This document shows, piece by piece, positions 5,791 to 32,296 of a DNA stretch of 64,000 bases (position 1 is its first letter; each line of letters starts with the position of its first letter). Made by a program: the position numbers and the translations under genes. The notes beneath the pieces are model-generated. The model searched no databases. It was not told where the DNA came from and saw only the letters and a list, made by a program, of their open reading frames with translations. The stretch is from the NCBI GenBank assembly GCA_038044745.1, contig JBBSZK010000008.1, positions 7,162 through 71,161 of the forward strand, written 5' to 3'. This stretch comes from Nanobdellota archaeon (GTDB lineage: Archaea; Nanobdellota; Nanobdellia; Pacearchaeales; GW2011-AR1).

Positions 5791-5798
5791 TTTATAAA
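5791..5798 (+). promoter_or_regulatory. TATA box TTTATAAA, 21 nt before ATG 5820
   Basis: Read directly. Confidence 0.6.
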
Positions 5799-5819
5799 TC
5801 AACTTCTGTGCTGATTAAA

Positions 5820-6917: not shown

Positions 6918-6958
6918 TAAAGGGACCTTGGTTTATCTCGTAGCAGGTTAGCTATAAG

Positions 6959-6966
6959 TTTATAAA
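6959..6966 (+). promoter_or_regulatory. TATA box TTTATAAA, 22 nt before ATG 6989
   Basis: Read directly. Confidence 0.55.
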
Positions 6967-6988
6967 CATTTTTTATAACCTTATGCAC

Positions 6989-7744: not shown

Positions 7745-7757
7745 TCGAGACAAGCAC

Positions 7758-11621: not shown

Positions 11622-11642
11622 GGGCTCCAAAACCTCGCTTGT

Positions 11643-11650
11643 TATTTAAA
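11643..11650 (-). promoter_or_regulatory. TATA box (TTTAAATA on minus), 21 nt before ATG 11621
   Basis: Read directly. Confidence 0.6.
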
Positions 11651-11683
11651 CATTCTTTATGACCTCTTAGAACAATAAAAAGG

Positions 11684-11691
11684 TTTAAATT
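11684..11691 (+). promoter_or_regulatory. TATA box TTTAAATT, 21 nt before the gmd ATG 11713
   Basis: Read directly. Confidence 0.6.
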
Positions 11692-11712
11692 GTCTGTTCT
11701 TTGCCAACGCTC

Positions 11713-12813: not shown

Positions 12814-13225
12814 GAAACGTTCGGTCTTGATCAGGACCGTTGTAAGGTCCATTTTTGAACTCAAACAGGTGCGCAGGCGTAAGCGCCCTTATGCTGTGCC
12901 CTCCCGCAAAAATAATATAACAATCGCCCTCGTTCAAATTAATTTTTTCGAGAAACGTGTTATCTACATCGTAAATTGAAAGTTCAATGGACCCTTTGAA
13001 GACTAAAAGCGCCTCATGAGTATGGCTCGTCACGCGTTCTTGGGCGTTATGTTTATGGGGCCTTGATTCAGCGCCGGCAGGCATACTAAATGAAACGGCC
13101 TGTAAGAAATGCGTTGATTCGGTAAGACGAGATTTTGTGCCTTGTTCAGAGGGTTCATGCGTATAAACCGTATGGAGAAGAACCGCCGGGTCAACCTTGG
13201 AGTAGATTTTTCGTATCATCAGCAC
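12806..13225 (-). CDS. cupin-fold protein (WbuC-like)
   Basis: 139 aa. PHKHNAQERVTSHTHEALLV...GGHSI resembles His-rich cupin motifs. Translationally coupled to the upstream C-methyltransferase. Confidence 0.5.
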   Translation of the reverse strand: MLMIRKIYSKVDPAVLLHTVYTHEPSEQGTKSRLTESTHFLQAVSFSMPAGAESRPHKHNAQERVTSHTHEALLVFKGSIELSIYDVDNTFLEKINLNEGDCYIIFAGGHSIRALTPAHLFEFKNGPYNGPDQDRTFLN

Positions 13226-20676: not shown

Positions 20677-20697
20677 CAACGACATTTGCAAAGTTCA

Positions 20698-21486
20698 ATG
20701 AGCCCAGAGTCAAAGAAGGTATGCATCTCTATTGCGGAAAGGCCGGGAACATTTGGCCAGCAGTTTCATAATCAGGGTTACGAGTTCTTGGGGTTAGATT
20801 ATGTGTATATTCCTCTAAAAGTAAACGCTTCAGAACTCGAATCGATGTTAAAAATTGTACGCGATAATTGTAAAGGCTGCAGCGTCTCAATGCCCCATAA
20901 AAAGAGAGTCTACGAGCTGGTTGATGAACGAGACGTCTCCGCAGAAAGAACCGGTGCAGTCAATACAATTTTAAATCAAGACGGGCGACTTATAGGATTC
21001 AACACAGATTATACGGGCGCAGGCAAGTTACTAAATGAGTCAGATGTGTTCGGAAAACGCGTAGTTCTCTTAGGCGCAGGAGGCGTTGCTCACGCACTTG
21101 GTGCTGCAGTGCTTGACAAGGGAGCAAATCTATACGTTATGAACAGAACAAGAGAACATGCAGAGTCCATGGTCCAAAGAATTGGCAATGGCTCTGTTAT
21201 AGATGAGAGCGAAATTTCCTCTATCAGAGCACACTGGTTAATTAATGCAACAAATCGCGGAATGGGTCCCGACGAAACCCCTCTCGCAAAAGAGTTTCTT
21301 ACCCCCTTTTTATATGTACTAGATGCAGTCGTTGGTGACACAACACTTATACGTGACGCTCGCGCGCTTGAGAAGATCGTTATTCCTGGAAGAATGCTCA
21401 CTGCGTATCAAGCCGCAGATCAATTTAAGATATATACAGGTCATAATCTCCCTCAAGAATTTATTAATCGATTCGCTAATTCTTAA
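20698..21486 (+). CDS. shikimate/quinate 5-dehydrogenase-like (AroE family)
   Basis: SVSMPHK, NTDYTG and LLGAGGVAHA motifs. Start ATG 20698 fits TATA 20669-20676. Confidence 0.7.
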   Translation: MSPESKKVCISIAERPGTFGQQFHNQGYEFLGLDYVYIPLKVNASELESMLKIVRDNCKGCSVSMPHKKRVYELVDERDVSAERTGAVNTILNQDGRLIGFNTDYTGAGKLLNESDVFGKRVVLLGAGGVAHALGAAVLDKGANLYVMNRTREHAESMVQRIGNGSVIDESEISSIRAHWLINATNRGMGPDETPLAKEFLTPFLYVLDAVVGDTTLIRDARALEKIVIPGRMLTAYQAADQFKIYTGHNLPQEFINRFANS

Positions 21487-22735
21487 AAAGCCCAATCGTT
21501 CGAGCACACCCAACCGCTTCGTTGATAAATGTGGCTATTTCATTTTTCCCATGAAGCGCAGAGAGCTGTACGCGTATCTCATCTTTCCCTTTGGGAACAA
21601 CAGGATAATTAATGGGAGTTACAAGAATCCCTTGTTCAAACAAGTTGCGAGCGAATTGTTTTGTCGTCTGGGTATCCCCCACCAAAAGCGGCTGAATAGG
21701 GTGATTAGATTCAGCAGCAAACGTAAAACCCGCGTTGCACATTTCAGATTTGAAAAATGCAATGTTCTCTCGTAACGTTTCTAAAAGCCGAACTCCCTCG
21801 GAGCTATCGACAAATCGAACTGACGCGAGCGCCGCACAGGCAGACGCGGGAGAAATAGGATTTGAATAAATATACGAAGCTGCAGATTCTCGCAAATAGT
21901 CAATAACAACCCTCCCTCCAACAACATAGCCTCCCTCAACACCAAACGCCTTGCCCAATGTGCCCACGAGAAGGTCGCTCTGCGAGCCCGAAACCTCTTC
22001 ACATCCTCTCCCTGTTGCACCAAAGCAACCAACACCATGCGAATCGTCAAGTACAAACGTAATTCCAAACTCAAACAAACCACTATGGTTATCGCAGATG
22101 TCGCGTATTTTCTTTACGTTTTGAGCTTCACCAAGCATACTAAATACACCATCACTAATAATCAAAACTCTCTTGAACTTTCCTGCATTTTCTTTCACAA
22201 GTCTCTCAAGGTCATGATAATCGTTATGGGTAAATACCAACCGTTGTTGCGAAGGTAGACCTGCTATACGAATGCCGTCTATAATGCTTCGATGATTTAG
22301 AGCATCTGAAATTATAAGCACGTCATCCGTCACGAGCGAGTCAGCACCTGGCCCCCGCACAAGCGCTTGAATGATAGAAACGTTCGTAGAAAAAGCAGAA
22401 GAAAAAATCATGGCCGATTCTCTTCCGTGAAAATGTGCAAGCGCCCGTTCAAGTTCCGTGTGAACCTCAAGAGTGCCCGAAATGAATCGTACGGCCCCCG
22501 CGCCGCTGCCATACGAATCAAGCCCTTCTTTCTCCGCAGCGTGGATAACCGAATTAAAACGTAAACCCAGATAGTCGTTAGAGTTAAACAAAAGAACGGG
22601 CTTGCCGTCAATGAGCGCACGAGGGCAGCGATCGGACGTAAATCCCTTTATTACACGCTCCGGTCGCTTTGACACTCCAATGTCATGCAATCGCACAAGT
22701 TCTCTTTCAAGAAGCTCCTCGAACTCTTTGCGCAT
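21476..22735 (-). CDS. PLP-dependent alpha-oxoamine synthase (Kbl/BioF/SPT family)
   Basis: SNDYLGL, DDSHGVG and the GTLGKAFG Schiff-base lysine motif. ATG 22735 lies 21 nt from TATA 22757-22764; the track start TTG 22747 is rejected. Confidence 0.8.
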   Translation of the reverse strand: MRKEFEELLERELVRLHDIGVSKRPERVIKGFTSDRCPRALIDGKPVLLFNSNDYLGLRFNSVIHAAEKEGLDSYGSGAGAVRFISGTLEVHTELERALAHFHGRESAMIFSSAFSTNVSIIQALVRGPGADSLVTDDVLIISDALNHRSIIDGIRIAGLPSQQRLVFTHNDYHDLERLVKENAGKFKRVLIISDGVFSMLGEAQNVKKIRDICDNHSGLFEFGITFVLDDSHGVGCFGATGRGCEEVSGSQSDLLVGTLGKAFGVEGGYVVGGRVVIDYLRESAASYIYSNPISPASACAALASVRFVDSSEGVRLLETLRENIAFFKSEMCNAGFTFAAESNHPIQPLLVGDTQTTKQFARNLFEQGILVTPINYPVVPKGKDEIRVQLSALHGKNEIATFINEAVGCARTIGLFKN

Positions 22736-22756
22736 GAATAGACTCAATACCGGTTA

Positions 22757-22781: not shown

Positions 22782-23543
22782 TCAATAGTAAGGAGAAGAA
22801 TAGCCCTCAAGTCGGTATCCCATAACTCTTTCAAAATCGTTAGTATCCAAAACAAGGCCTGCTTGTACACGATTCTTGTCGAGATGAACTCGCATAGCAG
22901 GGACTTCAATCTGAGAGACCATACGTCGAGTAACTTCAGGGTTCCGCGAGACACCCGTACGTGCAGTTCGTTCTATCTTTCTTTGTATAACGGTCTCGGG
23001 AGCGGCATCAAGAAATAGAACCCTATCAAATTGCGGAAGTTGTCTCAAGTACATTCCCGCAATGAATGCAATTGTCCTCCTAGTGAGAGTATAGGTTTCA
23101 TCATGTTCGGTGCCTGCTTTTTTCTCTGATAAAACATTTCGCATGGTTAACGCAGTAACAAGATCGGAAGACTCATTAAACCTTCCAATAGGGTCAAGCA
23201 GTTCTGTCTGCATCTTTCCATAGTTCCAAACTCTCGAAGGAAAATCGTCTGGAACGCCCCGCCCATTTGCGACTCCCACAAGAACAGAGGCGTAGGCCTC
23301 CATCGATTCTTCACGGCTTTTCTGAAATAAATCTCCCTCAATGAACAACGTGCCAATCTCTCCCTCATTAAGGCAAAATTCAAGTCGTTTAGCCAAAGTC
23401 GACTTCCCCGTGTTAGATAAACCCTCAACAGCAACAGTCATCGCGCGGAGGGGGAAAAGAGCCCTTTTCTCAGAAACAACTCGTTCGGCGACTATTTGCA
23501 GACCCGCCTCATAGGGAAGAGGGCCAAAGAGTAATTCGTTCAT
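22782..23543 (-). CDS. P-loop kinase (uridine kinase/phosphoribulokinase-like)
   Basis: Walker A VEGLSNTGKSTLAKRL followed by IEGDLF, as in the PRK/Udk family. Substrate unknown. Confidence 0.45.
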   Translation of the reverse strand: MNELLFGPLPYEAGLQIVAERVVSEKRALFPLRAMTVAVEGLSNTGKSTLAKRLEFCLNEGEIGTLFIEGDLFQKSREESMEAYASVLVGVANGRGVPDDFPSRVWNYGKMQTELLDPIGRFNESSDLVTALTMRNVLSEKKAGTEHDETYTLTRRTIAFIAGMYLRQLPQFDRVLFLDAAPETVIQRKIERTARTGVSRNPEVTRRMVSQIEVPAMRVHLDKNRVQAGLVLDTNDFERVMGYRLEGYSSPYY

Positions 23544-23704: not shown

Positions 23705-24172
23705 ATGTCAAAGAAATATTTTATTTTAGATGTAGATGGAGTGATGACCACAGGTCAGTTTTTCTATTCACCTAAAGGCAAGGCGTTTAAGGTGTTTGGT
23801 CCGCACGACGCGGATGGCCTCAAGCTTATTAGAGATAAAGTCGAAATTCGTTTCATAACAAGCGACAAACGCGGATTTTCTATCTCAAAGAAGCGAATAG
23901 ATGACATGGGATACCCGATTGAACTTGTAACGGAAGGAGATAGGCACAAGTATATCAAGGAAAAGTTTGGATTTGAGAACACCATCTTCATGGGGGACGG
24001 TATCTTCGATGCCCCGGTTATTCGAGATTGTGCGTTCGGTATTGCTCCTGCAAACGCGCGCATAGAGGCCAAGCGCTGGGCAAAGTACGTAACTCCCTCA
24101 AAATCAGGGGAAGGGGCGGTGTGTGATGCCTGCATCGTCATTAACAAAAAATTGTTAGGGACAAAAAAATGA
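23705..24172 (+). CDS. HAD-IIIA sugar-phosphate phosphatase (KdsC family)
   Basis: FILDVDGVMTTG (DxDG), ITSD, MGDGIFD and GEGAV motifs are typical of KdsC-like phosphatases. Confidence 0.8.
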   Translation: MSKKYFILDVDGVMTTGQFFYSPKGKAFKVFGPHDADGLKLIRDKVEIRFITSDKRGFSISKKRIDDMGYPIELVTEGDRHKYIKEKFGFENTIFMGDGIFDAPVIRDCAFGIAPANARIEAKRWAKYVTPSKSGEGAVCDACIVINKKLLGTKK

Positions 24173-24873
24173 ACTACAAAGTAATTATTCTTGCAGGCGG
24201 AATCGGGAGCCGAATGGGTGAATTCTCAAAATATTACAACAAAGTGCTCATTCCCGTTCAAGGAAAACCGACTATCTGCCATATCATCGAAAAATTCCCC
24301 GAAGATGTCGAAATAATAATTTCACTCAATTACAAAAAAGAAGATCTCAAAACTTTCTTAACGTATGCCTATCCAACTAGAAAAATTACCTTCGTCGAAG
24401 ACAAACCCTCTCCCGAAGGATTCAAGGGCCCCGGTTATGGGATGTTGCAGTGCAAAGACCACCTCCAATGTCCCTTCGTCTTTCTCTCGGGAGACACGCT
24501 CGTTAAAGAGCCTATTCCCGAACCCAACGAAAACTGGTTCGGGCTGGCAGAAGTGCCCGATACAACGCGATTTTGTTCAGCGAAACTTGATGAACGTCTA
24601 AACATCGTGCGTATTGATGACAAGGTACGTGTAGAGGGCAACTTAGCATTCATCGGTCTTGCCGGAGTGCGTGACTACGAACACTTCTGGAACGCCCTCG
24701 AAAACAACAAAAACATTATCGCAGGCGAGATTCAAGTCTCAAACGGTTTCAAATCCCTTTTAGAAAAAAACATGGTGGCTAAAATATTCACATGGTTCGA
24801 CACGGGTGCGCCCATAGCATACAAACACGCCCTCGAAAACTATCCTGATGGAACGGGGTACAAAGGGGAATAA
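24169..24873 (+). CDS. sugar-phosphate nucleotidyltransferase
   Basis: N-terminal ILAGGIGSRMG signature of the NTP_transferase fold. 234 aa. Confidence 0.75.
   Translation: MNYKVIILAGGIGSRMGEFSKYYNKVLIPVQGKPTICHIIEKFPEDVEIIISLNYKKEDLKTFLTYAYPTRKITFVEDKPSPEGFKGPGYGMLQCKDHLQCPFVFLSGDTLVKEPIPEPNENWFGLAEVPDTTRFCSAKLDERLNIVRIDDKVRVEGNLAFIGLAGVRDYEHFWNALENNKNIIAGEIQVSNGFKSLLEKNMVAKIFTWFDTGAPIAYKHALENYPDGTGYKGE
24646..24711 (+). repeat. 66-nt tract 100% identical to 25350-25415 (copy 1)
   Basis: gcattcatcggtcttgccggagtgcgtgactacgaacacttctggaacgccctcgaaaacaacaaa occurs in both tandem nucleotidyltransferase paralogs. Confidence 0.9.
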
Positions 24874-24875
24874 CC

Positions 24876-26471
24876 ATGCATTATAAAGTCTGTATCTTGG
24901 CGGGAGGGATAGGCAGTCAAATGGGCGAGCTCACAAGAAGCATTCATTCTTCGATATTACCTATTAACTTCAAGGCAGCCATTTCATACATCATCGAAAA
25001 ATTCCCTAAACAAGTCGAAATCGTACTCGCTCTCGGTCATAAAAAAGAAACGGTCATGGATTATTTGACATTAGCTCACAACGATCGCAGGTTTACGTTC
25101 GTGCAGTCAGAAAAATATGCCGGTCCCGGAACCGGCCCCGGTCACGCGCTTCTCGAATGTAAATCTCACTTGCAATGCCCCTTTATTTTTGTCACATCAG
25201 ACACAATTGTCCTCGAAGATATCCCCGAACCAAACGAAAACTGGTTCGGCATTGCGCCCGTTAAAGAAACAGAGCGATATTGCACGGTAAAAATAAAAAA
25301 CAACCTAATATACCAACTAGACGATAAAATAAAAACTGATAACAAATTCGCATTCATCGGTCTTGCCGGAGTGCGTGACTACGAACACTTCTGGAACGCC
25401 CTCGAAAACAACAAAGAGCCCATTAAGGGTCAAATCCAAGTCTCAAACGGTTTCAAATCGCTTATAGAAAATAAACTCGTGCCCACGGCATTCACATGGT
25501 TCGACACCGGCACGTTAGAAAGTTACAAAGAAACAAATGAGAACTTTTCAGGCGGAGAAAAACGATTTGACTTTAGCAAGGGAAATGAATTTATTTACTT
25601 CGTGAATGGAAAGGTCATAAAATATTTCGCAGATAAAAGAATAACCGAAAATCGATATAAACGCTCAAAGAATCTCAAGGGTCTTTGCCCAGAAATTGAA
25701 GGTATACAAGGGAACTTTTATGCATACAAAAAGCTTGATGGGCAGGTTATGTATAATGTGTTGAACCGTCAACTTGTTAAGGATTTTTTGGTTTGGCTCA
25801 AAACAAGTCTTTGGAAAAAGTCAGAACTCTCGAATGAAGAAGCAGAACGGTTTAAAGCGACGTGTGAACAATTTTATAAAGAAAAAACCTTCGAACGGTT
25901 GAAAAAATTCTATGACAAAACAAACCTCGCGGACGACTGGAACATTATTAATGGCGTACAAGTACCTCCCTTGAACGAACTCCTAAAAAAAATAGATTGG
26001 AATTTCATTACAGACGGAATTCCGACCAATTTCCACGGAGATTTACAGTTTGATAACATTCTTGTTACGAGAAATGCGGCCAATTCTTTACCAAAATTTG
26101 TCATTCTTGACTGGAGACAAGACTTCGGAGGGTCGGTTGACCATGGGGACTTGTATTACGACCTCGCAAAGATGTACGGGGGCGTTAATATTTCATACCA
26201 AATAATAAAGAAAGGGGGATTCACGTTCGATATGAGTGGGCAAAGTGTTTACTACAATTATACGATTGGTAATGACCTTCTTGACGCGAAAGAAGAGTGC
26301 GAAGAATTCATTGTTAAAAACGGCTTCGACCTCAAGAAAGTTAAACTCATCACTGCGCTTGTATTTCTTAACATGGCCCCTCTTCATCAAGCACCGTTTG
26401 ATATGATGCTGTATCACATGGGTAAGTTAAAATTATATACTGCCCTCAAAGACTTAGGAGTTATACAATGA
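24876..26471 (+). CDS. bifunctional nucleotidyltransferase (N-terminal) / APH-choline-kinase-fold kinase (C-terminal)
   Basis: Residues 1-225 are a paralog of the upstream gene (ILAGGIGSQMG). Residues about 230-531 carry FHGDLQFDNILV and ILDWRQDFGG, the Brenner and DxD-like motifs of APH/ChoK-type kinases. Confidence 0.75.
   Translation: MHYKVCILAGGIGSQMGELTRSIHSSILPINFKAAISYIIEKFPKQVEIVLALGHKKETVMDYLTLAHNDRRFTFVQSEKYAGPGTGPGHALLECKSHLQCPFIFVTSDTIVLEDIPEPNENWFGIAPVKETERYCTVKIKNNLIYQLDDKIKTDNKFAFIGLAGVRDYEHFWNALENNKEPIKGQIQVSNGFKSLIENKLVPTAFTWFDTGTLESYKETNENFSGGEKRFDFSKGNEFIYFVNGKVIKYFADKRITENRYKRSKNLKGLCPEIEGIQGNFYAYKKLDGQVMYNVLNRQLVKDFLVWLKTSLWKKSELSNEEAERFKATCEQFYKEKTFERLKKFYDKTNLADDWNIINGVQVPPLNELLKKIDWNFITDGIPTNFHGDLQFDNILVTRNAANSLPKFVILDWRQDFGGSVDHGDLYYDLAKMYGGVNISYQIIKKGGFTFDMSGQSVYYNYTIGNDLLDAKEECEEFIVKNGFDLKKVKLITALVFLNMAPLHQAPFDMMLYHMGKLKLYTALKDLGVIQ
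25350..25415 (+). repeat. 66-nt tract 100% identical to 24646-24711 (copy 2)
   Basis: Same string. Followed, after a short gap, by a further 23-nt identity (24733-24755 = 25437-25459). Confidence 0.9.
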
Positions 26472-27478
26472 TACAAGCACAGTTAGCCATAGGGCCTATG
26501 AGCTCTGAAATCATCGAAGCTATATTCAGATATTCTAACTATATGCGCACACCACTCATGCTTATCGCGTCAAAAAATCAAATTGACCACGCAGGGGGCT
26601 ACGTCAATAACTGGACGACAAAGCACTATATGGAATTTATACGAAGCATGAAATCTCTCTATCCCCAGAGCAATGTTGTTGTCTGCCGAGATCACTGCGG
26701 CCCAGGTTTCAATGGAAATTATGACCTCGAAGATACGTATAAGACGATTCGCTCAGACATTGAAAACGGTTTCGATCTTATACACATAGATTTTTGTCAT
26801 CTTAAGGGGGATCGAGATTTTGTATTGGGTGAAGCAAAAAAAGCAGTCGAATACTGCTTAAGCCTTAACCCGAAAATAATGCTCGAAATAGGCACCGATG
26901 AGAACATGGGGACTAATTATGGAGTTATGAACCTAAAAGAAGTTGCGCATGAAATTGATTTCTTTTCTCAATTTTGCAAGCCAGAGTTCTTTGTCGTGCA
27001 GACCGGCAGTCTGGTAAAGGAAATTCAGCAAGTCGGCAACTTCAATGAGTCCTTTGTAAAACAAATGGGTGCGAAAATAAGAGAAAAGGGTCTAAAGCTC
27101 AAAGAGCACAACGCAGATTATCTTACTAAAGAAGAAATAGCCTCACGTAAAGGTCTCGTAGACGCTATGAACATCGCCCCCCAACTGGGCGTCATTCAAA
27201 CCCAAACTGTGCTCAACAAGTGCTCCATCTACGGAGTTAACACAGAATCATTTGTCGACGAAGTCTATAAGGGTGGGAAGTGGAAGAAATGGTTGCATAC
27301 CAATACCGACGCAAACAAATTCCTCTGTGCGACCATCGCAGGGCACTATCATTTCACGTCAGATAGTTATAAAAAGATACTCTCTGAGCTCAACAAATCA
27401 GAAGACATGAACGAAACAATCATAAACAACATCATGGGCACGATTGGGCACTACCAGGGAGCATTAAATGGCAAGTGA
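26468..27478 (+). CDS. GatZ/KbaZ-family TIM-barrel protein (tagatose-bisphosphate aldolase subunit / sugar-phosphate 4-epimerase family)
   Basis: Recalled GatZ blocks are matched: ASKNQIDHAGGY (TSNQVNQFGGY), RDHCGPG (GDHLGPN), LIHID (KIHLD), IGTDEN (IGTEVP), VVQTGS (VVQPGV), EHNADY (AHSTDY). Confidence 0.6.
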   Translation: MIQAQLAIGPMSSEIIEAIFRYSNYMRTPLMLIASKNQIDHAGGYVNNWTTKHYMEFIRSMKSLYPQSNVVVCRDHCGPGFNGNYDLEDTYKTIRSDIENGFDLIHIDFCHLKGDRDFVLGEAKKAVEYCLSLNPKIMLEIGTDENMGTNYGVMNLKEVAHEIDFFSQFCKPEFFVVQTGSLVKEIQQVGNFNESFVKQMGAKIREKGLKLKEHNADYLTKEEIASRKGLVDAMNIAPQLGVIQTQTVLNKCSIYGVNTESFVDEVYKGGKWKKWLHTNTDANKFLCATIAGHYHFTSDSYKKILSELNKSEDMNETIINNIMGTIGHYQGALNGK

Positions 27479-27884
27479 CCTTCCCTTAAGTAAAGATTTC
27501 TACGGAAATCCTCCGAAAATTGTAGACAAGCCTTGGGGGCGCGAAGAATGGTTACACTTCGACGGGGATTATTGCTACAAAAGGATAATCCTCAATGCAG
27601 GAAATCAAACAAGTTTTCAGTATCACAAAGAGAAAAAAGAAACGAACTATGTTCTTTCAGGGCATGCGGAAGTCTGGCTAGAAAACGATGCAGGCGAAAT
27701 TGAGAAAAGAGTATGTGGTCCAGGGACGTTTATCACGGTCTTACCTCCTAAGAAGCACCGCGTGTGCGCGCTTACCGATTTGGTTATGCTTGAATGCTCA
27801 ACACCCCACGTTGACGATGTCGTGCGAATTCAAGATGATACGGGCAGACCAGACGGTCGAATACAAAGCGAACACAATCACTAA
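27468..27884 (+). CDS. cupin (type II phosphomannose-isomerase-like cupin domain)
   Basis: KPWGREEW...SFQYHKEKKETNYVLSGHAEV...PPKKHR matches the PMI-type cupin motifs. Confidence 0.65.
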   Translation: MASDLPLSKDFYGNPPKIVDKPWGREEWLHFDGDYCYKRIILNAGNQTSFQYHKEKKETNYVLSGHAEVWLENDAGEIEKRVCGPGTFITVLPPKKHRVCALTDLVMLECSTPHVDDVVRIQDDTGRPDGRIQSEHNH

Positions 27885-27888
27885 GAAA

Positions 27889-28554
27889 TTATTTTCTCTC
27901 CGCCTTCCAAGCCGCGCTATAGGCTCGTGCAACATTCACCAATTCCCAAGGTAGATCTGCTTGCGGTGCGCACCACGGATCGGGGTTGCCCGCGGCATCT
28001 TTGTTAACGGGCCAATCAGCAAGTCGCAACAGCTCGGCAACCGCTTCTTTTTGGTCAATCAATCTTCGAGAGTCAAACGTATAGTGCGTACCCGTTCCTT
28101 GCCATCGCGTCTTAAATCCGAGTTGAGGGGCCTTATGCTCGAGCATAGCCATAATGCGTTTCAGAGAGGTAGGATGAATAACCACCGTCATGTCTTCATG
28201 AGGCAAACGTTCCTCGACTATTTTTCCAAGCCCCATCTCACAGCACTCGCCTCCGTTTCTCGGGCGAGACTCAACATACAATTTATCCCCCTGAACCCCC
28301 TCAGCAACCAGGAGTGACGCGAGATAGTGAGATTCAGGAATCTGTAATCTTGTTAACGGGCCAGAATCTTTTCCAATACCCCCTACAATAAGCGCATAGT
28401 CTGCAAGGCCCTCTCCAAGCAGTTGAGCCGTTCTATTGGCTACTAAATGGTCTGCTCTTCCAAATACAAACAACCCATCCGCACGATTTAGGGGACCCGT
28501 TCCCGCACGTACGTAGTTATATATCGCTTCTATCTTGCCTGTATCAATGTTCAT
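27889..28554 (-). CDS. DUF218/YdcF-family protein
   Basis: LFVFGRAD...IVGGIG...PESHYL...ESRPRNGGE...VVIHPTSLKR resembles the YdcF/SanA fold blocks. ATG 28554 lies 21 nt from TATA 28576-28583. Confidence 0.55.
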   Translation of the reverse strand: MNIDTGKIEAIYNYVRAGTGPLNRADGLFVFGRADHLVANRTAQLLGEGLADYALIVGGIGKDSGPLTRLQIPESHYLASLLVAEGVQGDKLYVESRPRNGGECCEMGLGKIVEERLPHEDMTVVIHPTSLKRIMAMLEHKAPQLGFKTRWQGTGTHYTFDSRRLIDQKEAVAELLRLADWPVNKDAAGNPDPWCAPQADLPWELVNVARAYSAAWKAERK

Positions 28555-28575
28555 AAAAAAGCGCGCCAAGTTCGA

Positions 28576-28640: not shown

Positions 28641-29720
28641 ATGCAGACGCAGATTACTGTTCTTTTTACAGGCCTTATCCGAGAATACGAGGTCTTTAAG
28701 AAATCTCTAGAAGATTTGGCACAACTCAAGAAAGAGGGATTCGTAGACACCATCATGCTCGCAACGCGAATCGGCGAGCCCGCAAAGCACCCCGATATGC
28801 ACGAAGCATTTAAGCAAGCAGGTGTCGTAATCATCGAAGCAGAGGATCCCGCACTAAATGAGAACAGCCCGTACTATCAAGGAAAAGACTTCATCTGGAG
28901 GCAGATGAAGGGACTTGAAGTCGGCCTTACCCACATCGCTAAAGGAACGTTTGTCCTCAAGACACGCTCAGATACCTATATCGAACCGCAATTCATTAAA
29001 AAACTCGCAACTGAAAAGGAGACGCTTCTCAAAATCACAAAAAATCTTCCCAAAGGAAATGTGTTCAAGTGTAAAGTATGGGTTCCTTGGTTCGAGCTCA
29101 CAAAACCCTTTTTTATGGCCGATGAGTGCTTTTTCGGACTTAAGGAAGACTTGGAGAAATTATATAATTATAACAAGGACTATTTTGAAAAATACGATCT
29201 CGGTACGGATGTACATCATGTCATGCGGTTTATCGAGCCGTTCTTAGCAAAATATCCTTTCTTTACATCGTCTATGTCAAGATATCGCAAAGACCGAGCG
29301 ATGAAGAACTTTCTAAAGAGAAATTTCCCCAAAATGTACGAGCAACTTAAGCATTTTTCCTTTATCAAAAAAGCCTCGGAACGTAATAGGTTTGCTATTC
29401 TCAACGCACGATTGGAAGACCAAGACTATCTCGACTTGCTCGCAGCGTATTATTACGTCTTGTACAGCCACTTCTATATAGACCTTGTTTCATTTCCAGA
29501 CCAAATCGTATTCAGGGACTTTTACAAAGGAGTTCTGCCCCGCTCAGACAAAAAGAATGCCGAGAAAAACTTTTCAGTTGAAAAAGTACGCTTCCCCGGA
29601 AGCGGAATGCTCTATTTCTATGAACAGGGGTTTGTGAATGCGCTCCTTGAAGGAAAACTTGAAAAGACGCCCCTGCAAGAGCAACTCACGGAAGGGCTGC
29701 GTCGGTTTGAGAAACTTTAA
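28641..29720 (+). CDS. uncharacterized soluble protein (359 aa), glycan-island specific
   Basis: Long ORF with its own TATA (28613-28620). No motif recognised by eye. Confidence 0.5.
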   Translation: MQTQITVLFTGLIREYEVFKKSLEDLAQLKKEGFVDTIMLATRIGEPAKHPDMHEAFKQAGVVIIEAEDPALNENSPYYQGKDFIWRQMKGLEVGLTHIAKGTFVLKTRSDTYIEPQFIKKLATEKETLLKITKNLPKGNVFKCKVWVPWFELTKPFFMADECFFGLKEDLEKLYNYNKDYFEKYDLGTDVHHVMRFIEPFLAKYPFFTSSMSRYRKDRAMKNFLKRNFPKMYEQLKHFSFIKKASERNRFAILNARLEDQDYLDLLAAYYYVLYSHFYIDLVSFPDQIVFRDFYKGVLPRSDKKNAEKNFSVEKVRFPGSGMLYFYEQGFVNALLEGKLEKTPLQEQLTEGLRRFEKL

Positions 29721-30819
29721 CGCGCATTCTTGAAAGAAGAAACAGCAGAACGCCCAGTTCAAGAATAGCCAACGTCAAAAGAAGATAGATCCCATAAATC
29801 GACTCCGAATTGCGTTTTGTTTCAATTACTGTTTTTTCTCGAGGTGGAGCGACTTCAAGATTTTCTAAATCAGAATATAATTGTCTTGAAAAGAGTTCAG
29901 AGCCGATATAGTTGACATGTTCAGGGTCGCCAAAAAGATAATCTTTTTCAGGGAAGAGAGAGTAATAGTTAAGGAACGTATAGTTGCCAAGCGTTTTATC
30001 TACTTCGGTAAATATTCGCGCATAATAGTCCTCTTTTGTTACGTTTTTCTCCGTAATAATCTGGTCATATTCGAGCGTATGGGGGTAACTGACGAATATG
30101 ACGGGCACGTTATGTTGTTGTGCAAGTTTAATGGTCTTAATAAAATACTCAAACGAAACATTGCTTATTCTTTCTTGGTTTTCATAGAGGCTTTTATAGT
30201 TAAAGAGTGCAGACGCGTTTTTGTCAACAAGAGAAAAGTTTTCTTTATTTTTGAGCCACCCTCCCGCAGAGATTTCGTTAAACTCGGTCTTTTTCAAGAG
30301 AACTCCAAATTCTTTTCCGTTCCCAATAAACGGCATATTGGCTTCGAGCCATAGTCTAATCAAGAAATCATTCCTTACATGTTGAACTTCATAAAGAGAA
30401 ACGAACTGCGAATAGAGCTCAAGTTCGTTAAACAAGTTGGTCTCGTCAGTAAGTCTTGTCGAAAAAGTGTGGGGATCAAGCTCAAGAATAACCGCCCCGA
30501 CGCTTTCGTTATCCTTCTCAAGGACCTTACGGAGTTTGTAAAATGATTTAATATAGTTTTCTGCTCCGCTGGCATAATTATATGCGCCAGGGACATATGC
30601 AGGATTAACCGCATGGAATGCGTGAGAATCTCCCAGTACAAGATATTCGATACGGCCTCCCGAGAGAGCGGTATAATTTTGATATAAACTCTCCTTTCGA
30701 TAAAACGTTTTCTGAGGAAGAATAAAAGTGGTATAAATAAAATTGACAAGAAAAATTACAAGCAATAAAACTGCTATAAACGCAATCACGTTTTGTGCCG
30801 AAAGATTCTTCTTTTTCAT
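29686..30819 (-). CDS. membrane-anchored SGNH/DltD-like acyl-transfer partner of the MBOAT
   Basis: N-terminal TM helix and a block I LVLGDSHAF (GDS). ATG 30819 abuts the MBOAT stop (30821). The upstream part of the track ORF overlaps the MBOAT gene. Confidence 0.55.
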   Translation of the reverse strand: MKKKNLSAQNVIAFIAVLLLVIFLVNFIYTTFILPQKTFYRKESLYQNYTALSGGRIEYLVLGDSHAFHAVNPAYVPGAYNYASGAENYIKSFYKLRKVLEKDNESVGAVILELDPHTFSTRLTDETNLFNELELYSQFVSLYEVQHVRNDFLIRLWLEANMPFIGNGKEFGVLLKKTEFNEISAGGWLKNKENFSLVDKNASALFNYKSLYENQERISNVSFEYFIKTIKLAQQHNVPVIFVSYPHTLEYDQIITEKNVTKEDYYARIFTEVDKTLGNYTFLNYYSLFPEKDYLFGDPEHVNYIGSELFSRQLYSDLENLEVAPPREKTVIETKRNSESIYGIYLLLTLAILELGVLLFLLSRMRVKVSQTDAALP

Positions 30820-30820
30820 G

Positions 30821-32296
30821 TTAAAACTGGAAGTAAATAAATTGTCTCCTTTCAAATACTCCGAACAAGAGGATGATGAGTATGAGCCCAATATAGAGTG
30901 TGGCACGAATCCACCTCGGAAGTTTCAAAATGAATTCTTTCTTGCCCTCTCGTTCTTGCACAAGTTGTACAATTTCCATAAGAGCTATTGCCCCGAGCGC
31001 GATTATAATCTCCCAAATGCTCATTCCAAGATTTGCTCCTGTAAACCCTACGGCGAGCCCGCTGAAAAGATGACGTACGACATAGAACGCATCGGAAACA
31101 TTGGTCGCTCGGAAGAAAATCCACGCAAAGCTGGCAAGCACAGTCGTAATAGTTATTTGTACCGTTGCATTGAGCCAAGCGATGCGATTCAACCCAATTC
31201 TCTCCTTAAGGGTAGTGCGGAATCTTGCCGTCATAAGTCCTATAACAAGATAAGCACCATGCAAACCTCCCCATATAACAAACGTCCACGAGGCCCCATG
31301 CCATAGTCCGCTCACAAGGAATACGACAAACAGGTTAAGATACCATCGAGGCACCGCAACTCGATTACCTCCAAGAGGAATATACACATAATCTCTGAAC
31401 CACGATGAAAGCGAGATGTGCCATCGCTTCCAAAATTCAGCAATTGATCTCGCGTAGTAGGGACGTCTAAAGTTTTCCATGAGTTTGAAGCCCATAATTC
31501 GAGCCGAGCCTATGGCAATATCAGTATATCCCGAAAAGTCGCAATAAATTTGAACGGCAAAAAAGAGCGTTGCCAAAATAAGAGGCGCCCCCTGGTAGGC
31601 CGAAGGGGACGCGTAAACTGTGTCCACCAAAACAGCAACACGGTCTGCAATTACGACCTTTTTAAAAAATCCCCAGAGCATAAGCCTAAGTCCGCTCCAG
31701 GTACGTTCAGCGTCAAACGAATGTTTTTCTCTAAACTGATGTAGGAGATTCTGTGGTCTTTCAATGGGCCCCGCAACGAGCTGAGGGAAGAAAAGAACGT
31801 AAAGTGAAAAAATCCCAAAGTGTCGTTCTGCAGCTTGGTTTTTTCGATATACCTCTATGGTATAACTCATTGCCTGAAACGTGTGAAATGAAAGTCCAAT
31901 GGGCAATAAAATGGAAAGGTAGGGGATGTTCGTTTCAATACCGAGCGGCTGCATCAAAAAAGAAAGATTTTCATTGAGAAAATTGTAATATTTGAATACA
32001 GCAAGTACTCCCACATTCGAAAGAATACTTGCAACGAGAAACATCTTCCTTCTTCGGCCGGAGCTCTTTTCAATAAGAATTCCTGCTATATAATCGACAC
32101 AAATAGTAAAACCGAGTATGAGGATGTAAATCGGGACAAAGGACATGTAGAAATAGGCACTCGCAATAAGAAGAAGGAACCAACGATATTTGTGAGGGAT
32201 TGAGAAATAGAGGGCAAGCACTAGAATAAAGAAGACTACGAACTGAATCGAGTTGAATATAAGGTACCCTGAAAAAAGGGATTCCCATCCTACCAT
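30821..32296 (-). CDS. MBOAT-family O-acyltransferase (AlgI/DltB-like)
   Basis: 491 aa, polytopic. FWKRWHISLSSWFRDYVYIPLGGNR and GLWHGASW, including the conserved catalytic His region. Confidence 0.85.
   Translation of the reverse strand: MVGWESLFSGYLIFNSIQFVVFFILVLALYFSIPHKYRWFLLLIASAYFYMSFVPIYILILGFTICVDYIAGILIEKSSGRRRKMFLVASILSNVGVLAVFKYYNFLNENLSFLMQPLGIETNIPYLSILLPIGLSFHTFQAMSYTIEVYRKNQAAERHFGIFSLYVLFFPQLVAGPIERPQNLLHQFREKHSFDAERTWSGLRLMLWGFFKKVVIADRVAVLVDTVYASPSAYQGAPLILATLFFAVQIYCDFSGYTDIAIGSARIMGFKLMENFRRPYYARSIAEFWKRWHISLSSWFRDYVYIPLGGNRVAVPRWYLNLFVVFLVSGLWHGASWTFVIWGGLHGAYLVIGLMTARFRTTLKERIGLNRIAWLNATVQITITTVLASFAWIFFRATNVSDAFYVVRHLFSGLAVGFTGANLGMSIWEIIIALGAIALMEIVQLVQEREGKKEFILKLPRWIRATLYIGLILIILLFGVFERRQFIYFQF

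What the first reader, a model, noticed from the sequence alone, without database searches (positions are those of the whole stretch)
23705..27884. Five-gene operon that looks like an undescribed nucleotide-sugar activation route (HAD phosphatase, NTase, NTase-kinase fusion, GatZ/KbaZ-like barrel, cupin)
Five tightly coupled genes (4-nt overlaps or 2-nt gaps) encode:
- a KdsC-type HAD sugar-phosphate phosphatase;
- a stand-alone nucleotidyltransferase;
- a second nucleotidyltransferase fused to an APH/choline-kinase-fold kinase (HGDLQFDN, ILDW);
- a GatZ/KbaZ-family TIM barrel;
- a PMI-type cupin.
GatZ/KbaZ proteins are known as tagatose-bisphosphate aldolase subunits and, more recently, as hexose-6-phosphate 4-epimerases. 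APH-fold kinases paired with NTases are known for anomeric sugar-1-kinase/uridylyltransferase salvage (AmgK/MurU type) and for LicA/LicC.
This combination matches none of the textbook NDP-sugar pathways (RmlABCD, GmhA/HddA/GmhB/HddC, NeuABC, LicABC).
One possible reading is ketohexose-6-P epimerisation, then dephosphorylation, anomeric phosphorylation and nucleotidyl transfer, with the cupin acting as an isomerase. That would deliver an unusual sugar to the AglB-dependent glycan. This reading is inference only.
Basis: partly seen in the sequence, partly recalled or inferred. Interest (0 to 1): 0.78.

Follow-up and report, generated by a model that had tools for sequence, protein, structure and literature searches.

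The report
Uncharacterised nucleotide-sugar synthesis gene cassette
This archaeal operon is one copy of a widespread, uncharacterised gene cassette, shared by tiny symbiotic archaea and bacteria, marine bacteria and T4-like phages, that most likely builds and activates an unusual sugar by a kinase–phosphatase–nucleotidyltransferase route so far shown experimentally only for phage UDP-arabinose.

Summary
The five ORFs exist at the stated coordinates, and all five fold assignments hold.

The block is not a one-off. The core comprises a GatZ-like barrel, a PMI-type cupin, an NTase–APH-kinase fusion and a phosphatase. It is syntenic in about 50 of 57 cellular loci and about 60 of 81 viral loci, and its parts occur pairwise fused elsewhere.

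A ketoreductase is a frequent sixth member. In the window it is the AroE-like gene at 20686-21486, outside the finding's coordinates.

The stand-alone NTase is a compensating duplicate. The window's fusion NTase has lost catalytic Arg15 and Lys25 (association p = 2e-5).

The fusion is a distant homologue of phage AfhE/RB69 gp52:53. With a HAD phosphatase and an isomerase, that enzyme makes UDP-arabinofuranose via a sugar 1,ω-bisphosphate.

Best model:
1. ketose-phosphate is epimerised or re-assembled by the barrel;
2. the cupin converts it to an aldose-ω-phosphate;
3. the kinase phosphorylates the anomeric position;
4. the phosphatase removes the ω-phosphate;
5. the NTase makes the NDP-sugar.

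The sugar's identity is unknown.

Verdict: a new variant of a known kind. No member comes from a cultured organism or has been characterised.

The parts
23705..24172 (+). YrbI/KdsC-type (C0-cap) HAD phosphatase. Proposed role: removal of the distal (ω) phosphate from the sugar 1,ω-bisphosphate.
   Evidence: TIGR01670 scores E=2.1e-17. The family profile scores 7.6e-23 to 2p9j and about 1e-18 to KdsC structures. The DxDG motif (D9, D11) and the GDG..D motif are invariant. The gene is present in 41 of 57 cellular loci, and KdsC-HAD–NTase fusions exist in L025 and L052.
24169..24873 (+). Stand-alone sugar-phosphate nucleotidyltransferase. It is the catalytically intact paralogue that replaces the degenerate NTase domain of the fusion.
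   Evidence: It matches PF12804/PF00483. It is a roughly 50%-identical paralogue of fusion residues 1-227 and keeps GSRMG...NK. An extra NTase is present in 10 of 11 loci whose fusion lacks Arg15, against 6 of 34 with Arg15 (Fisher p=2.3e-5).
24876..25550 (+). N-terminal NTase domain of the fusion protein. It is degenerate in this lineage, with Gln15 and Ser25 in place of the family's Arg15 and Lys25.
   Evidence: Column counts over 120 homologues give R 96 / Q 16 at position 15 and K 90 at position 25. The domain matches PF00483.
25551..26471 (+). C-terminal APH/choline-kinase-fold kinase domain. Proposed role: anomeric kinase acting on a sugar-ω-phosphate, as in AfhE.
   Evidence: HGDLQFDN, DW and the β3 Lys are invariant. 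The Foldseek top hits are choline kinase, FN3K, GlcN kinase and APH, with TM 0.45-0.5. The family HMM hits RB69 gp52 at E=1.8e-9 and Enterococcus phage 9183 gp047 at 7.7e-20. The G-x-x-x-Y-D-x-A-K signature is shared with both phage proteins.
26468..27478 (+). Short (336 aa) GatZ/KbaZ-like class II aldolase-superfamily TIM barrel. Proposed role: metal-dependent ketose-phosphate C4-epimerase or aldolase.
   Evidence: Foldseek matches 2fiq at E=2.7e-14 with TMq 0.79. hhalign against E. coli GatZ gives 88.6% probability and maps D87/H88→D75/H76, E171→D144 and H257→H214, all invariant, but E44→I33 and K279→N235 (residue roles from PMC11907403). More than 1,888 homologues were found, and 284 clusters at 50% identity score E≤1e-30.
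27468..27884 (+). PMI-type cupin. Proposed role: ketose-P to aldose-P isomerase.
   Evidence: 15 of 15 family members hit PF01050, best E=5.3e-10. Q51, H53, E58 and H97 are invariant. The cupin lies next to the barrel in 48 of 57 loci. Fused forms exist: barrel–cupin (P0256) and cupin–NTase–kinase (L148).
20686..21486 (+). AroE-fold ketoreductase or dehydrogenase. It is a frequent sixth member of the module and lies outside the finding's coordinates.
   Evidence: It scores 189 bits to a shikimate-DH model, below the cutoff of 252. It keeps K65, N86, T101, D102 and Q244 of AroE, but S14→R/K, S16→G and Y215→I/V. An SDH-like or SDR reductase is present in 39 of 57 cellular loci, and an SDH-like one in 33 of 81 viral loci.
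22782..23543 (-). P-loop (PRK/APS-kinase-like) kinase. It recurs only in Woesearchaeota-type loci, and its role is uncertain.
   Evidence: It gives only weak hits. A homologue is found in 6 loci, including L004, L022 and L052.
27889..28569 (-). DUF218-like protein, recurrently adjacent to the module. Its role is unknown.
   Evidence: PF02698 scores E=8.6e-4, below the cutoff. Homologues occur in 10 loci.

Best explanation
The operon is an anabolic cassette that makes an activated (NDP-linked) unusual aldose for the surrounding glycan-assembly genes.

Proposed steps:
1. The GatZ-like barrel performs Zn/enediolate chemistry on a ketose ω-phosphate from central metabolism. This is either a C4 epimerisation such as fructose-6-P to tagatose-6-P, or an exchange of the aldehyde half.
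2. The PMI-type cupin isomerises the ketose-P to the aldose-ω-P.
3. The APH-fold kinase domain phosphorylates the anomeric hydroxyl, giving an aldose 1,ω-bisphosphate.
4. The KdsC-type HAD removes the ω-phosphate.
5. An NTase forms the NDP-sugar. In this genome that is the stand-alone paralogue, because the fused NTase domain has lost Arg15 and Lys25.
6. Where present, the AroE-like or SDR reductase and the methyltransferases tailor the sugar.

Shown here: the folds, retention of the catalytic residues, homology of the fusion to AfhE-type enzymes, conserved synteny, and the gene fusions.

Inferred: the substrates, the order of steps 3 and 4 (taken from AfhE/AfhF), the role of the reductase, and the nucleotide used.
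For: Folds and catalytic residues:
- The folds are established.
- Catalytic residues are retained in all proteins except the fused NTase.

Conserved neighbourhood:
- Of 57 cellular loci, 51 have the NT-kinase, 48 a cupin, 41 the HAD and 39 a reductase.
- The same set occurs in 81 viral loci.

Rosetta-stone fusions:
- cupin–NTase–kinase (L148);
- KdsC-HAD–NTase (L025, L052);
- IMPase–NTase (L012);
- HAD-IA-like–NTase (L019, L056);
- NTase–methyltransferase (L016, L035);
- barrel–cupin (P0256);
- NTase–kinase–barrel (P0316) and barrel–NTase–kinase (P0360).

Phosphatase step: it is filled by at least four different phosphatase types, which argues that the step is required whatever the fold.

Characterised homologue: family HMMs hit RB69 gp52 (E=1.8e-9) and gp53 (1.5e-5), and Enterococcus phage 9183 gp047 (2.4e-16 for the NTase domain, 7.7e-20 for the kinase domain). 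PMC13326640, citing He et al., Nat Chem Biol 2026, reports that AfhE is both an arabinose-5-P 1-kinase and a UDP-arabinose pyrophosphorylase, and that AfhF is the HAD that converts Ara-1,5-P2 to Ara-1-P.

GatZ chemistry: E. coli GatZ and KbaZ are F6P/T6P C4-epimerases whose proposed active site is Asp87, His88, Glu171 and His257 (PMC11907403).

Context: the operon sits in an island with flippases, glycosyltransferases and AglB.
Against: - No member has been assayed, and every locus comes from an uncultured MAG, SAG or viral contig.
- The reductase has no obligatory place in the scheme, because an aldose-1-P has no free carbonyl. Yet it sits in the middle of the operon in many loci.
- The c7 methyltransferase resembles C-methyltransferases that need a keto sugar. 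It is fused to the NTase in L016 and L035 and to the barrel in P0339, which hints at chemistry on a keto intermediate that the model does not explain.
- The barrel differs from GatZ at two family-distinguishing residues (I33, N235) and lacks about 85 C-terminal residues, so its reaction may not be a 4-epimerisation.
- The kinase is no closer structurally to known sugar kinases than to choline kinase.
- The HAD is not homologous at the subfamily level to AfhF or RB69 gp51; the HAD family HMM does not hit it.
Confidence: 0.6

Rival explanations
1. Bottom-up aldolase route. The barrel acts as a true aldolase, condensing DHAP with a small aldehyde that the reductase may supply, to give a ketose-1-phosphate. 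The HAD removes that phosphate. The cupin isomerises the free ketose to an aldose. The kinase phosphorylates the anomeric position, and the NTase activates the sugar. In effect this is fucose or rhamnose catabolism run backwards, followed by salvage.
For: - It uses all six activities once and explains why both a phosphatase and a kinase are needed.
- The barrel belongs to the class II aldolase superfamily and keeps the Asp-His/metal set.
- KdsC-type HADs act on terminal primary phosphates.
Against: - The closest structural relatives of the barrel are GatZ-type epimerases that bind ketose-6-P with an unphosphorylated C1, not the DHAP-using aldolases (TMq 0.79 against about 0.5-0.58).
- The cupin matches PMI models, which act on phosphorylated sugars.
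- The characterised homologue AfhE phosphorylates an already phosphorylated sugar.
- The reductase is absent from about a third of loci.
Confidence: 0.13
2. CDP-alditol, CDP-cyclitol or LicCA-like head-group route. A ketose-P is reduced to a polyol phosphate, its phosphate is repositioned by the phosphatase and kinase, and the product is cytidylylated. It is then transferred as a phospho-polyol, in the manner of teichoic acids or of the CDP-ribitol, CDP-glucitol and CDP-inositol systems.
For: - A ketoreductase lies in the operon in 39 of 57 loci.
- Its AroE fold normally acts on cyclohexane polyols.
- IMPase-family phosphatases occur in 9 of 57 loci within ±5 genes (13-14 loci in all).
- One locus (L005) has a CDP-alcohol phosphotransferase nearby.
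- The NTase signature GSRMG is of the type common in cytidylyltransferases (own knowledge).
- The Foldseek top hits for the kinase are choline kinases.
Against: - The cupin would have no role.
- The minimal phage versions (L087-L096) lack any reductase.
- Neighbours are overwhelmingly glycosyltransferases rather than phosphotransferases.
- Pfam Choline_kinase does not hit; only the generic APH and EcKL models do.
- The kinase motif is of the APH/AfhE type (DW-R…YDxAK), not the choline-kinase type.
Confidence: 0.12
3. Pure salvage module. The kinase and NTase recycle a free sugar scavenged from a host (AmgK/MurU-like), and the barrel, cupin and HAD belong to unrelated catabolism.
For: - DPANN and Patescibacteria are scavengers (own knowledge).
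- APH-fold kinase plus NTase pairs are known salvage systems (own knowledge).
Against: - Barrel, cupin, phosphatase and NT-kinase are fused to one another in various genomes.
- They travel together into phage genomes.
- Full-length catabolic GatZ homologues in PTS operons form a different, longer subfamily.
Confidence: 0.04

Closest known systems
Phage UDP-D-arabinofuranose pathway: arabinose-5-P isomerase plus AfhE (NTase–kinase) plus AfhF (HAD), in phages HY126, RB69 (gp55, gp53:52, gp51) and DLP3. Source: He et al., Nat Chem Biol 2026, as described in PMC13326640.
   Same: - The bifunctional protein has the same architecture, an N-terminal NTase and a C-terminal APH-like kinase.
- It is detectably homologous. 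Profile E-values are 1.8e-9 for RB69 gp52 and 1.5e-5 for gp53. The related but uncharacterised Enterococcus phage 9183 gp047 scores 2.4e-16 and 7.7e-20.
- A HAD phosphatase and a sugar-phosphate isomerase are encoded alongside.
- The logic, inferred here, is the same: ketose-P, aldose-ω-P, 1,ω-bisphosphate, sugar-1-P, NDP-sugar.
- Viral copies occupy the same neighbourhood next to the DNA polymerase.
   Different: - The isomerase is a PMI-type cupin, not a SIS-fold KdsD-like enzyme.
- The HAD is KdsC-type, or in other loci an IMPase or HAD-IA, rather than the small AfhF/gp51 type.
- An extra GatZ-like barrel is always present, and a reductase usually.
- The substrate is therefore not ribulose-5-P or arabinose.
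- Most copies lie in cellular glycan islands of archaea and bacteria.
- No ThyA-like base-modifying gene is nearby in the viral copies.
ADP-/GDP-heptose pathways: GmhA, then HldE or HddA kinase, then GmhB, then HldE or HddC NTase (own knowledge).
   Same: The four-step logic is identical: isomerase, anomeric kinase, HAD phosphatase acting on a 1,7-bisphosphate, NTase. In HldE the kinase and the NTase are likewise fused.
   Different: The isomerase (SIS) and the kinase (ribokinase or GHMP fold) are non-homologous, and there is no aldolase-superfamily member. NCBIfam HddC hits reach only E=2e-8, at 34 bits against a cutoff of 300.
GatZ/KbaZ, now regarded as fructose-6-P/tagatose-6-P C4-epimerases (PMC11907403), and the class II aldolases.
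   Same: The fold is shared (Foldseek TMq 0.79 to 2fiq). The catalytic Asp-His and the two further metal ligands are conserved.
   Different: - The protein has 336 aa against 420, lacking part of the C-terminal helical region.
- It is 14% identical.
- The GatZ-distinguishing residues Glu44 and Lys279 are Ile33 and Asn235.
- The context is anabolic and glycan-related rather than a PTS or galactitol catabolic operon.
- It always pairs with a cupin.
LicA/LicC (and the Treponema LicCA fusion) and AmgK/MurU (own knowledge).
   Same: An APH-fold kinase works with an NTase on consecutive steps, and the domain order NTase then kinase matches LicCA.
   Different: Those systems act on unphosphorylated choline or MurNAc and need no phosphatase, isomerase or aldolase-type enzyme. 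There is no Pfam Choline_kinase hit.
Type II PMI-GMP bifunctional enzymes (ManC, AlgA).
   Same: A PMI-type cupin is associated with a sugar-1-P NTase. The cupin aligns to TIGR01479 positions 359-465.
   Different: There the phosphate is moved by a phosphomannomutase. Here a kinase plus a phosphatase replace the mutase.

Membership tests
AfhE-type bifunctional sugar-phosphate 1-kinase / NDP-sugar pyrophosphorylase | N-terminal NTase domain fused to a C-terminal APH/protein-kinase-like domain | tested here: met
   The NTase occupies residues 1-225 and the kinase-fold domain residues 226-531.
AfhE-type bifunctional sugar-phosphate 1-kinase / NDP-sugar pyrophosphorylase | Detectable sequence homology of both domains to RB69 gp53:52 | tested here: met
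   Family HMMs score 1.8e-9 for gp52 and 1.5e-5 for gp53. Enterococcus phage 9183 gp047 scores 2.4e-16 and 7.7e-20. The relationship is distant: tblastn with the single sequence does not reach RB69.
AfhE-type bifunctional sugar-phosphate 1-kinase / NDP-sugar pyrophosphorylase | Both domains catalytically competent | tested here: not met
   The kinase motifs are intact. The window's NTase domain has Gln15 and Ser25 in place of Arg and Lys, and the function is presumably supplied by the adjacent paralogue. Most family members (96 of 120) keep Arg15.
AfhE-type bifunctional sugar-phosphate 1-kinase / NDP-sugar pyrophosphorylase | Co-encoded HAD phosphatase and sugar-phosphate isomerase | tested here: met
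   A HAD lies at 23705-24172 and a cupin isomerase at 27468-27884. Both are of different subfamily or fold from AfhF and the A5P isomerase.
AfhE-type bifunctional sugar-phosphate 1-kinase / NDP-sugar pyrophosphorylase | Substrate arabinose-5-P and product UDP-Araf | not testable with these tools
   This needs enzymology. The different isomerase and the extra barrel make a different sugar likely.
GatZ/KbaZ-like (PF08013; IPR012062) | Class II aldolase-type TIM barrel closest to GatZ structures | tested here: met
   Foldseek gives 2fiq at E=2.7e-14 with TMq 0.79, and also 3txv; the true aldolases score TMq 0.48-0.58. Pfam gives 31.2 bits, above the gathering score of 26.7.
GatZ/KbaZ-like (PF08013; IPR012062) | Catalytic Asp87 with metal ligands His88, Glu171 and His257 | tested here: met
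   D75, H76, D144 (a conservative Glu→Asp change, with E145 adjacent) and H214 are all invariant in 25 sequences.
GatZ/KbaZ-like (PF08013; IPR012062) | Family-distinguishing residues Cys20, Glu44 and Lys279 (PMC11907403) | tested here: not met
   Glu44 corresponds to Ile33 and Lys279 to Asn235, both invariant. Cys20 falls in an alignment gap.
GatZ/KbaZ-like (PF08013; IPR012062) | Equivalog-level similarity and length (about 420 aa) | tested here: not met
   Scores are 27.8-31.5 bits against cutoffs of 569-707. The protein has 336 aa, and only residues 14-110 align by HMMER.
KdsC / YrbI HAD phosphatase (TIGR01670) | C0-cap HAD fold with the DxD and GDxxxD motifs and similarity to KdsC structures | tested here: met
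   The score is below the subfamily cutoff (63.5 bits against 107), so specificity for KDO-8-P is not implied.
LicA/LicC phosphocholine system | Kinase domain matching the choline/ethanolamine kinase family with its choline-kinase motif | tested here: not met
   No PF01633 hit for any of the 17 aligned members; only APH (17 of 17) and EcKL (11 of 17) hit. Foldseek similarity to choline kinase is generic (TM 0.46-0.5, 11-13% identity) and equals that to FN3K and APH. The choline pocket itself was not modelled.
Type II phosphomannose isomerase cupin (PF01050) | Cupin with Gln/His/Glu/His metal ligands and a match to the PMI C-terminal model | tested here: met
   PF01050 scores 27.5 bits, above the cutoff of 23.6, and 15 of 15 members hit. 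Q51, H53, E58 and H97 are invariant.
Shikimate dehydrogenase AroE | Catalytic Lys65/Asp102 plus the shikimate-binding residues Ser14, Ser16 and Tyr215 | tested here: not met
   Lys and Asp are kept, but S14→R/K, S16→G and Y215→I/V in 28 sequences. The score is 189 bits against a cutoff of 252. The roles of these residues are taken from my own knowledge of AroE structures.

The most novel reading that the evidence does not exclude
The cassette makes a nucleotide sugar that has not been described. Candidates are an NDP-hexose derived from tagatose-6-P (such as NDP-D-talose or a furanose form), or a methyl-branched or higher-carbon sugar.

This would be the first anabolic use of a GatZ-type epimerase/aldolase coupled to a cupin isomerase.

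The same cassette would have been exchanged between DPANN archaea, Patescibacteria, SAR11-type bacteria and T4-like phages. In the phages it lies beside the replication genes and could supply a new sugar for DNA hypermodification.
Probability: 0.4. Interest if true: 0.85.

Novelty: new variant of a known kind. Interest (0 to 1): 0.68.

Why it matters
- **Scale and spread.** Several thousand proteins are involved: more than 1,888 barrels and 2,807 fusions, with 284 barrel clusters at 50% identity. The cassette crosses the archaea/bacteria/virus boundaries at 50-70% identity, which points to strong selection and frequent transfer.
- **Biological setting.** The organisms that carry it are uncultured episymbionts and abundant marine lineages. 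Their surface glycans, which probably mediate attachment to hosts and recognition by phages, are chemically unknown.
- **Testability.** A defined four- to six-enzyme cassette with a characterised distant homologue (AfhE/AfhF) makes the question directly testable in vitro.
- **New roles and biology.** It would give GatZ-type enzymes a biosynthetic role. Its presence in hundreds of T4-like phage contigs next to DNA polymerase raises the possibility of another sugar-based DNA hypermodification or of phage-directed glycan remodelling.
- **A textbook case.** The degenerate fused NTase with a compensating duplicate is a clean example of a pseudoenzyme domain kept within a fusion.

Tried and rejected
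**Searches that gave nothing specific**
- The kinase-domain profile against PDB sequences returned only RIPK2 catalytic-loop noise at E around 1.
- The cupin profile against PDB could not separate PMI from oxalate decarboxylase.
- Literature searches found no paper on this cassette. The terms covered GatZ with NTase and kinase in archaea, LicCA, anomeric kinase–NTase fusions, and DPANN/Patescibacteria nucleotide sugars.
- The He et al. primary paper is not held, so it is cited through PMC13326640.
- The sigma-70 promoter and terminator scan was at background level, as expected for an archaeon.

**Technical failure**
- hhalign in global mode gave a meaningless alignment. Local mode was used instead.

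**Cultured or annotated sources**
- No isolated phage carries the barrel, apart from an unannotated marine SAG virus and some Listeria prophage-adjacent GatZ genes.
- Plasmid hits are ordinary full-length GatZ genes in PTS operons, except for the Sinorhizobium locus.

**Hypotheses not supported**
- DNA modification in phages: no ThyA-like, dCTPase or RB69-type glycosyltransferase homologue lies within ±8 kb of the viral copies. The idea remains a positional hint only.
- A shared transferase family among the unannotated neighbours (c22, c13, UNK359, c37, c46, c52, c35, c17): no hhalign pair exceeded 50% probability.
- c22 has no match in PDB, Pfam or PHROGs.

**Artefacts and deprioritised ideas**
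- Clusters c39 and c42 were judged antisense artefacts of my crude gene caller.
- An inositol or carbocycle-forming role for the barrel was considered and deprioritised. Class II aldolase chemistry would activate the wrong carbon of 5-keto-glucose-6-P (reasoning, not tested).

Full report
**1. Observation**

Their junctions are a 4-nt overlap, a 2-nt gap, a 4-nt overlap and an 11-nt overlap.

Profile searches recover all five proposed families, but only weakly. Every NCBIfam hit lies far below its curated cutoff, so these are divergent members.

The two NTases are paralogues, roughly 50% identical over 228 residues.

The window is a glycan-biosynthesis island. It holds flippases, GT2 and GT4 glycosyltransferases, a GDP-mannose 4,6-dehydratase, RmlD-like reductases, two TylC3-type C-methyltransferases, an MBOAT and a 907-aa STT3/AglB. 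Its nearest public relative is a Candidatus Woesearchaeota MAG, 98% identical (L006).

**2. Folds**

- **Kinase domain.** The C-terminal 306 residues of the fusion have no strong sequence match. All 17 aligned family members (the window protein plus 16 homologues) hit Pfam APH weakly. A confident AlphaFold model (pLDDT 85.7) finds choline kinase, fructosamine-3-kinase, glucosamine kinase, APH(2'') and macrolide kinases about equally (TM 0.45-0.5, 10-15% identity). It is therefore a small-molecule kinase of the APH fold with no specific subfamily. The catalytic HGD…N loop, the DW metal-binding Asp and the β3 Lys are invariant.
- **Barrel.** The model (pLDDT 86.3) is closest to E. coli GatZ (2fiq, E=2.7e-14, TMq 0.79) and 3txv. 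True class II aldolases follow at TMq about 0.5-0.58.
- **Barrel active site.** A 2025 study shows that GatZ and KbaZ are fructose-6-P/tagatose-6-P C4-epimerases. It proposes Asp87 as the catalytic residue and His88, Glu171 and His257 as Zn ligands, with Cys20, Glu44 and Lys279 distinguishing the family from FBA (PMC11907403). A profile alignment to E. coli GatZ (88.6% probability) maps these to invariant D75, H76, D144 (followed by E145) and H214. Glu44 is Ile33 and Lys279 is Asn235, and the protein is about 85 residues shorter. It is thus a catalytically equipped but distinct subfamily.
- **HAD.** It is clearly YrbI/KdsC-type (profile E=7.6e-23 to 2p9j and about 1e-18 to KdsC), with intact motifs.
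- **Cupin.** It matches the PMI C-terminal model in 15 of 15 members, and Gln, His, Glu and His are invariant.

**3. The family and its neighbourhood**

The barrel has more than 1,888 homologues in the 5.8-billion-protein set. Typical identity is 63-70% across Woesearchaeota, Nanoarchaeota, Pacearchaeota, Iainarchaeota and Patescibacteria. The fusion has 2,807 homologues. An exhaustive HMM search finds 284 barrel clusters at 50% identity with E≤1e-30.

Eighty genome loci also include SAR11 and SAR86 single-cell genomes and MAGs from Omnitrophota, Planctomycetota, Spirochaetota and Myxococcota. None comes from a cultured organism.

In 57 non-redundant loci with enough flanking sequence, the genes within ±5 of the barrel were as follows:

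| Neighbour | Loci (of 57) |
|---|---|
| NT-kinase fusion | 51 |
| Cupin | 48 |
| KdsC-type HAD | 41 |
| Ketoreductase (AroE-like 22, SDR 17) | 39 |
| Extra NTase | 25 |
| c7, TylC3-like methyltransferase | 14 |
| IMPase-family phosphatase | 9 |

In the window it is the AroE-like gene at 20686-21486. This reductase keeps AroE's catalytic Lys65 and Asp102 and also Asn86, Thr101 and Gln244. It replaces Ser14, Ser16 and Tyr215, so it is an active dehydrogenase that is unlikely to use shikimate.

**4. The second NTase**

Across 120 homologues the fused NTase carries the canonical G-x-G-[ST]-R…N-K signature. The window's copy has Gln15 and Ser25, while the adjacent stand-alone paralogue keeps both residues.

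Among the loci, 10 of 11 fusions lacking Arg15 have an extra NTase, and the eleventh is at a contig edge. Only 6 of 34 with Arg15 have one (Fisher p=2.3e-5).

The stand-alone gene is therefore a compensating duplicate and not a second activation step.

**5. Gene fusions**

Rosetta-stone fusions tie the parts into one pathway and suggest the order of steps:

- cupin–NTase–kinase (L148);
- KdsC-HAD–NTase (L025, L052);
- IMPase–NTase (L012);
- HAD-IA-like–NTase (L019, L056);
- NTase–c7 methyltransferase (L016, L035);
- barrel–cupin (P0256);
- NTase–kinase–barrel (P0316) and barrel–NTase–kinase (P0360);
- barrel–c7 (P0339).

The phosphatase step is filled by at least four different phosphatase types. 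One of them is a small AfhF-like HAD in some phages. This argues for a required dephosphorylation immediately before nucleotidyl transfer.

**6. Viruses and the characterised homologue**

Unexpectedly, 338 IMG/VR contigs encode the barrel at 36-48% identity. In 81 loci the whole set travels together: kinase 60, NTase 59, cupin 57, HAD 43 and AroE-like 33. These copies lie next to DnaB, primase and Pol III α or T4-type family-B polymerase genes.

This led to the literature on glycosylated phage DNA. In phages HY126, RB69 and DLP3, UDP-arabinofuranose is made as follows:

1. An arabinose-5-P isomerase acts on ribulose-5-P.
2. The bifunctional AfhE (N-terminal NTase, C-terminal APH-like kinase) phosphorylates Ara5P to Ara-1,5-P2.
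3. The HAD AfhF removes the 5-phosphate.
4. The NTase domain of AfhE makes UDP-Ara.

The source is PMC13326640, citing He et al., Nat Chem Biol 2026.

RB69's genes lie beside DNA polymerase gp43. The window family's HMMs detect RB69 gp52 (E=1.8e-9) and gp53 (1.5e-5). They also detect both domains of Enterococcus phage 9183 gp047 (2.4e-16 and 7.7e-20). A G-x-x-x-Y-D-x-A-K motif is shared.

AfhE/AfhF is thus the closest characterised system, and it supplies the mechanistic template. That template is also the logic of the GmhA/HldE/GmhB heptose pathway (own knowledge).

**7. Model**

The proposed sequence is:

1. ketose-ω-P;
2. an epimeric or re-assembled ketose-P, made by the GatZ-like barrel;
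3. aldose-ω-P, made by the cupin;
4. aldose-1,ω-P2, made by the kinase;
5. aldose-1-P, made by the HAD;
6. NDP-sugar, made by the NTase;
7. optional reduction, methylation or carbamoylation.

The simplest instantiation is F6P to T6P, then talose-6-P or galactose-6-P, then an NDP-hexose. Nothing here fixes the sugar or the nucleotide.

A short barrel–cupin pair followed by a DegT aminotransferase and a HAD-IA lies on a Sinorhizobium symbiosis plasmid. This suggests that the barrel–cupin pair is a reusable front end feeding different downstream chemistry.

Weak points:
- The reductase has no obligatory substrate in the scheme.
- The c7 methyltransferase resembles enzymes that need a keto sugar.
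- The barrel's specificity residues differ from those of GatZ.

**8. Rivals**

- A bottom-up aldolase route (DHAP plus an aldehyde) uses all the enzymes neatly. It conflicts with the GatZ-type rather than aldolase-type barrel, the PMI-type cupin and the AfhE precedent.
- A CDP-polyol or LicCA-like route fits the reductase, the IMPase and one CDP-alcohol transferase. It leaves the cupin idle and fails for the phage versions that lack a reductase.
- Pure salvage, and chance adjacency, are excluded by the fusions.

**9. Novelty and verdict**

- the step order is probably reversed;
- the two NTases are one function;
- a reductase was missed.

The activation half is a new, very distant branch of a kind characterised in 2026. 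The front end of GatZ-like barrel plus cupin, the KdsC-type phosphatase, and the distribution across DPANN, Patescibacteria, marine bacteria and phages are all undescribed, as far as the held literature shows.

I rate it a new variant of a known kind, with interest 0.68.

Noticed in passing
L087-L166 (IMG/VR viral contigs), e.g. L123 2208-6381 and L087 7640-10894: The complete cassette occurs on hundreds of viral contigs: 338 barrel hits. It lies next to DnaB, primase and Pol III α or T4-type DNA polymerase genes, in the same position as RB69's arabinose genes. No ThyA-like or DNA-glycosyltransferase homologue lies within ±8 kb, so whether it serves DNA hypermodification or glycan remodelling remains open.
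   Followed up: partly
L123 6378-7457; L005 about 11225-12466; alignment A5: Protein family 'c22' follows the barrel in 39 of 81 viral loci and flanks the module in about 8 DPANN or Patescibacteria loci. It is about 360 aa in phages and 410-430 aa in cells. It has no match in Pfam, PHROGs or PDB. Its invariant features are an N-x-D-H motif and PPLFIPPGFF. It may be the dedicated transferase. It is absent from the window.
   Followed up: partly
L167 (Sinorhizobium sp. CCBAU 05631 plasmid pSS05631a, NZ_CP023065.1) 8022-11498: On a symbiosis plasmid, a short GatZ-like gene (34% identical to the window's) is followed by a homologous cupin, a DegT-family aminotransferase, a HAD-IA hydrolase and a DeoR regulator. 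This is the only instance of the barrel–cupin pair found in a cultured organism, and it may be an amino-sugar pathway.
   Followed up: no
window 24876-25550: The NTase domain of the fusion has lost both signature catalytic residues (Arg15→Gln, Lys25→Ser), yet it stays about 65-77% identical to active homologues. It is a retained pseudo-enzyme domain with a neighbouring active duplicate.
   Followed up: yes
window 21476-22747 (- strand): A BioF/Kbl-family PLP-dependent acyltransferase lies between the reductase and the operon. It scores 339 bits to glycine C-acetyltransferase, below the cutoff of 460. It is conserved in the 78%-identical relative L007. This is an unusual enzyme type for a glycan island.
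   Followed up: no
window 29686-30906 and 30821-32296 (- strand): An MBOAT (AlgI/DltB-like) is paired with a membrane-anchored DUF1574-like protein immediately upstream of AglB (32394-35117). This suggests O-acylation of the glycan. The pair recurs in L007.
   Followed up: no
window 7659-8990 and 13219-14439: Two full TylC3/TcaB9-type NDP-sugar C-methyltransferases lie alongside a GDP-mannose 4,6-dehydratase (11701-12813) and RmlD-like reductases. Together these form a separate branched deoxysugar pathway in the same island.
   Followed up: no
L087 209-1654 and 4060-7653: The phage DnaB-like helicase and the Pol III α both carry LAGLIDADG or intein insertions.
   Followed up: no
L123 8039-8593: A T4-like viral contig encodes a full-length ribosome recycling factor (PF01765, E=2.4e-61) between the cassette and the DNA polymerase.
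   Followed up: no
L159 9065-10537 and equivalents in about 14 viral loci: In one viral subgroup a NodU/CmcH-type carbamoyltransferase directly follows the barrel. This suggests that the sugar is O-carbamoylated there.
   Followed up: no
L170 (Enterococcus phage 9183, NC_055907.1) 4893-11424: An isolated Enterococcus phage has an AfhE-like NTase–kinase (gp047) with a small HAD (gp046, annotated as 'phosphoheptose isomerase'). They lie next to a thymidylate synthase homologue, dUTPase and thymidylate kinase. This looks like an uncharacterised DNA-sugar hypermodification cluster.
   Followed up: no
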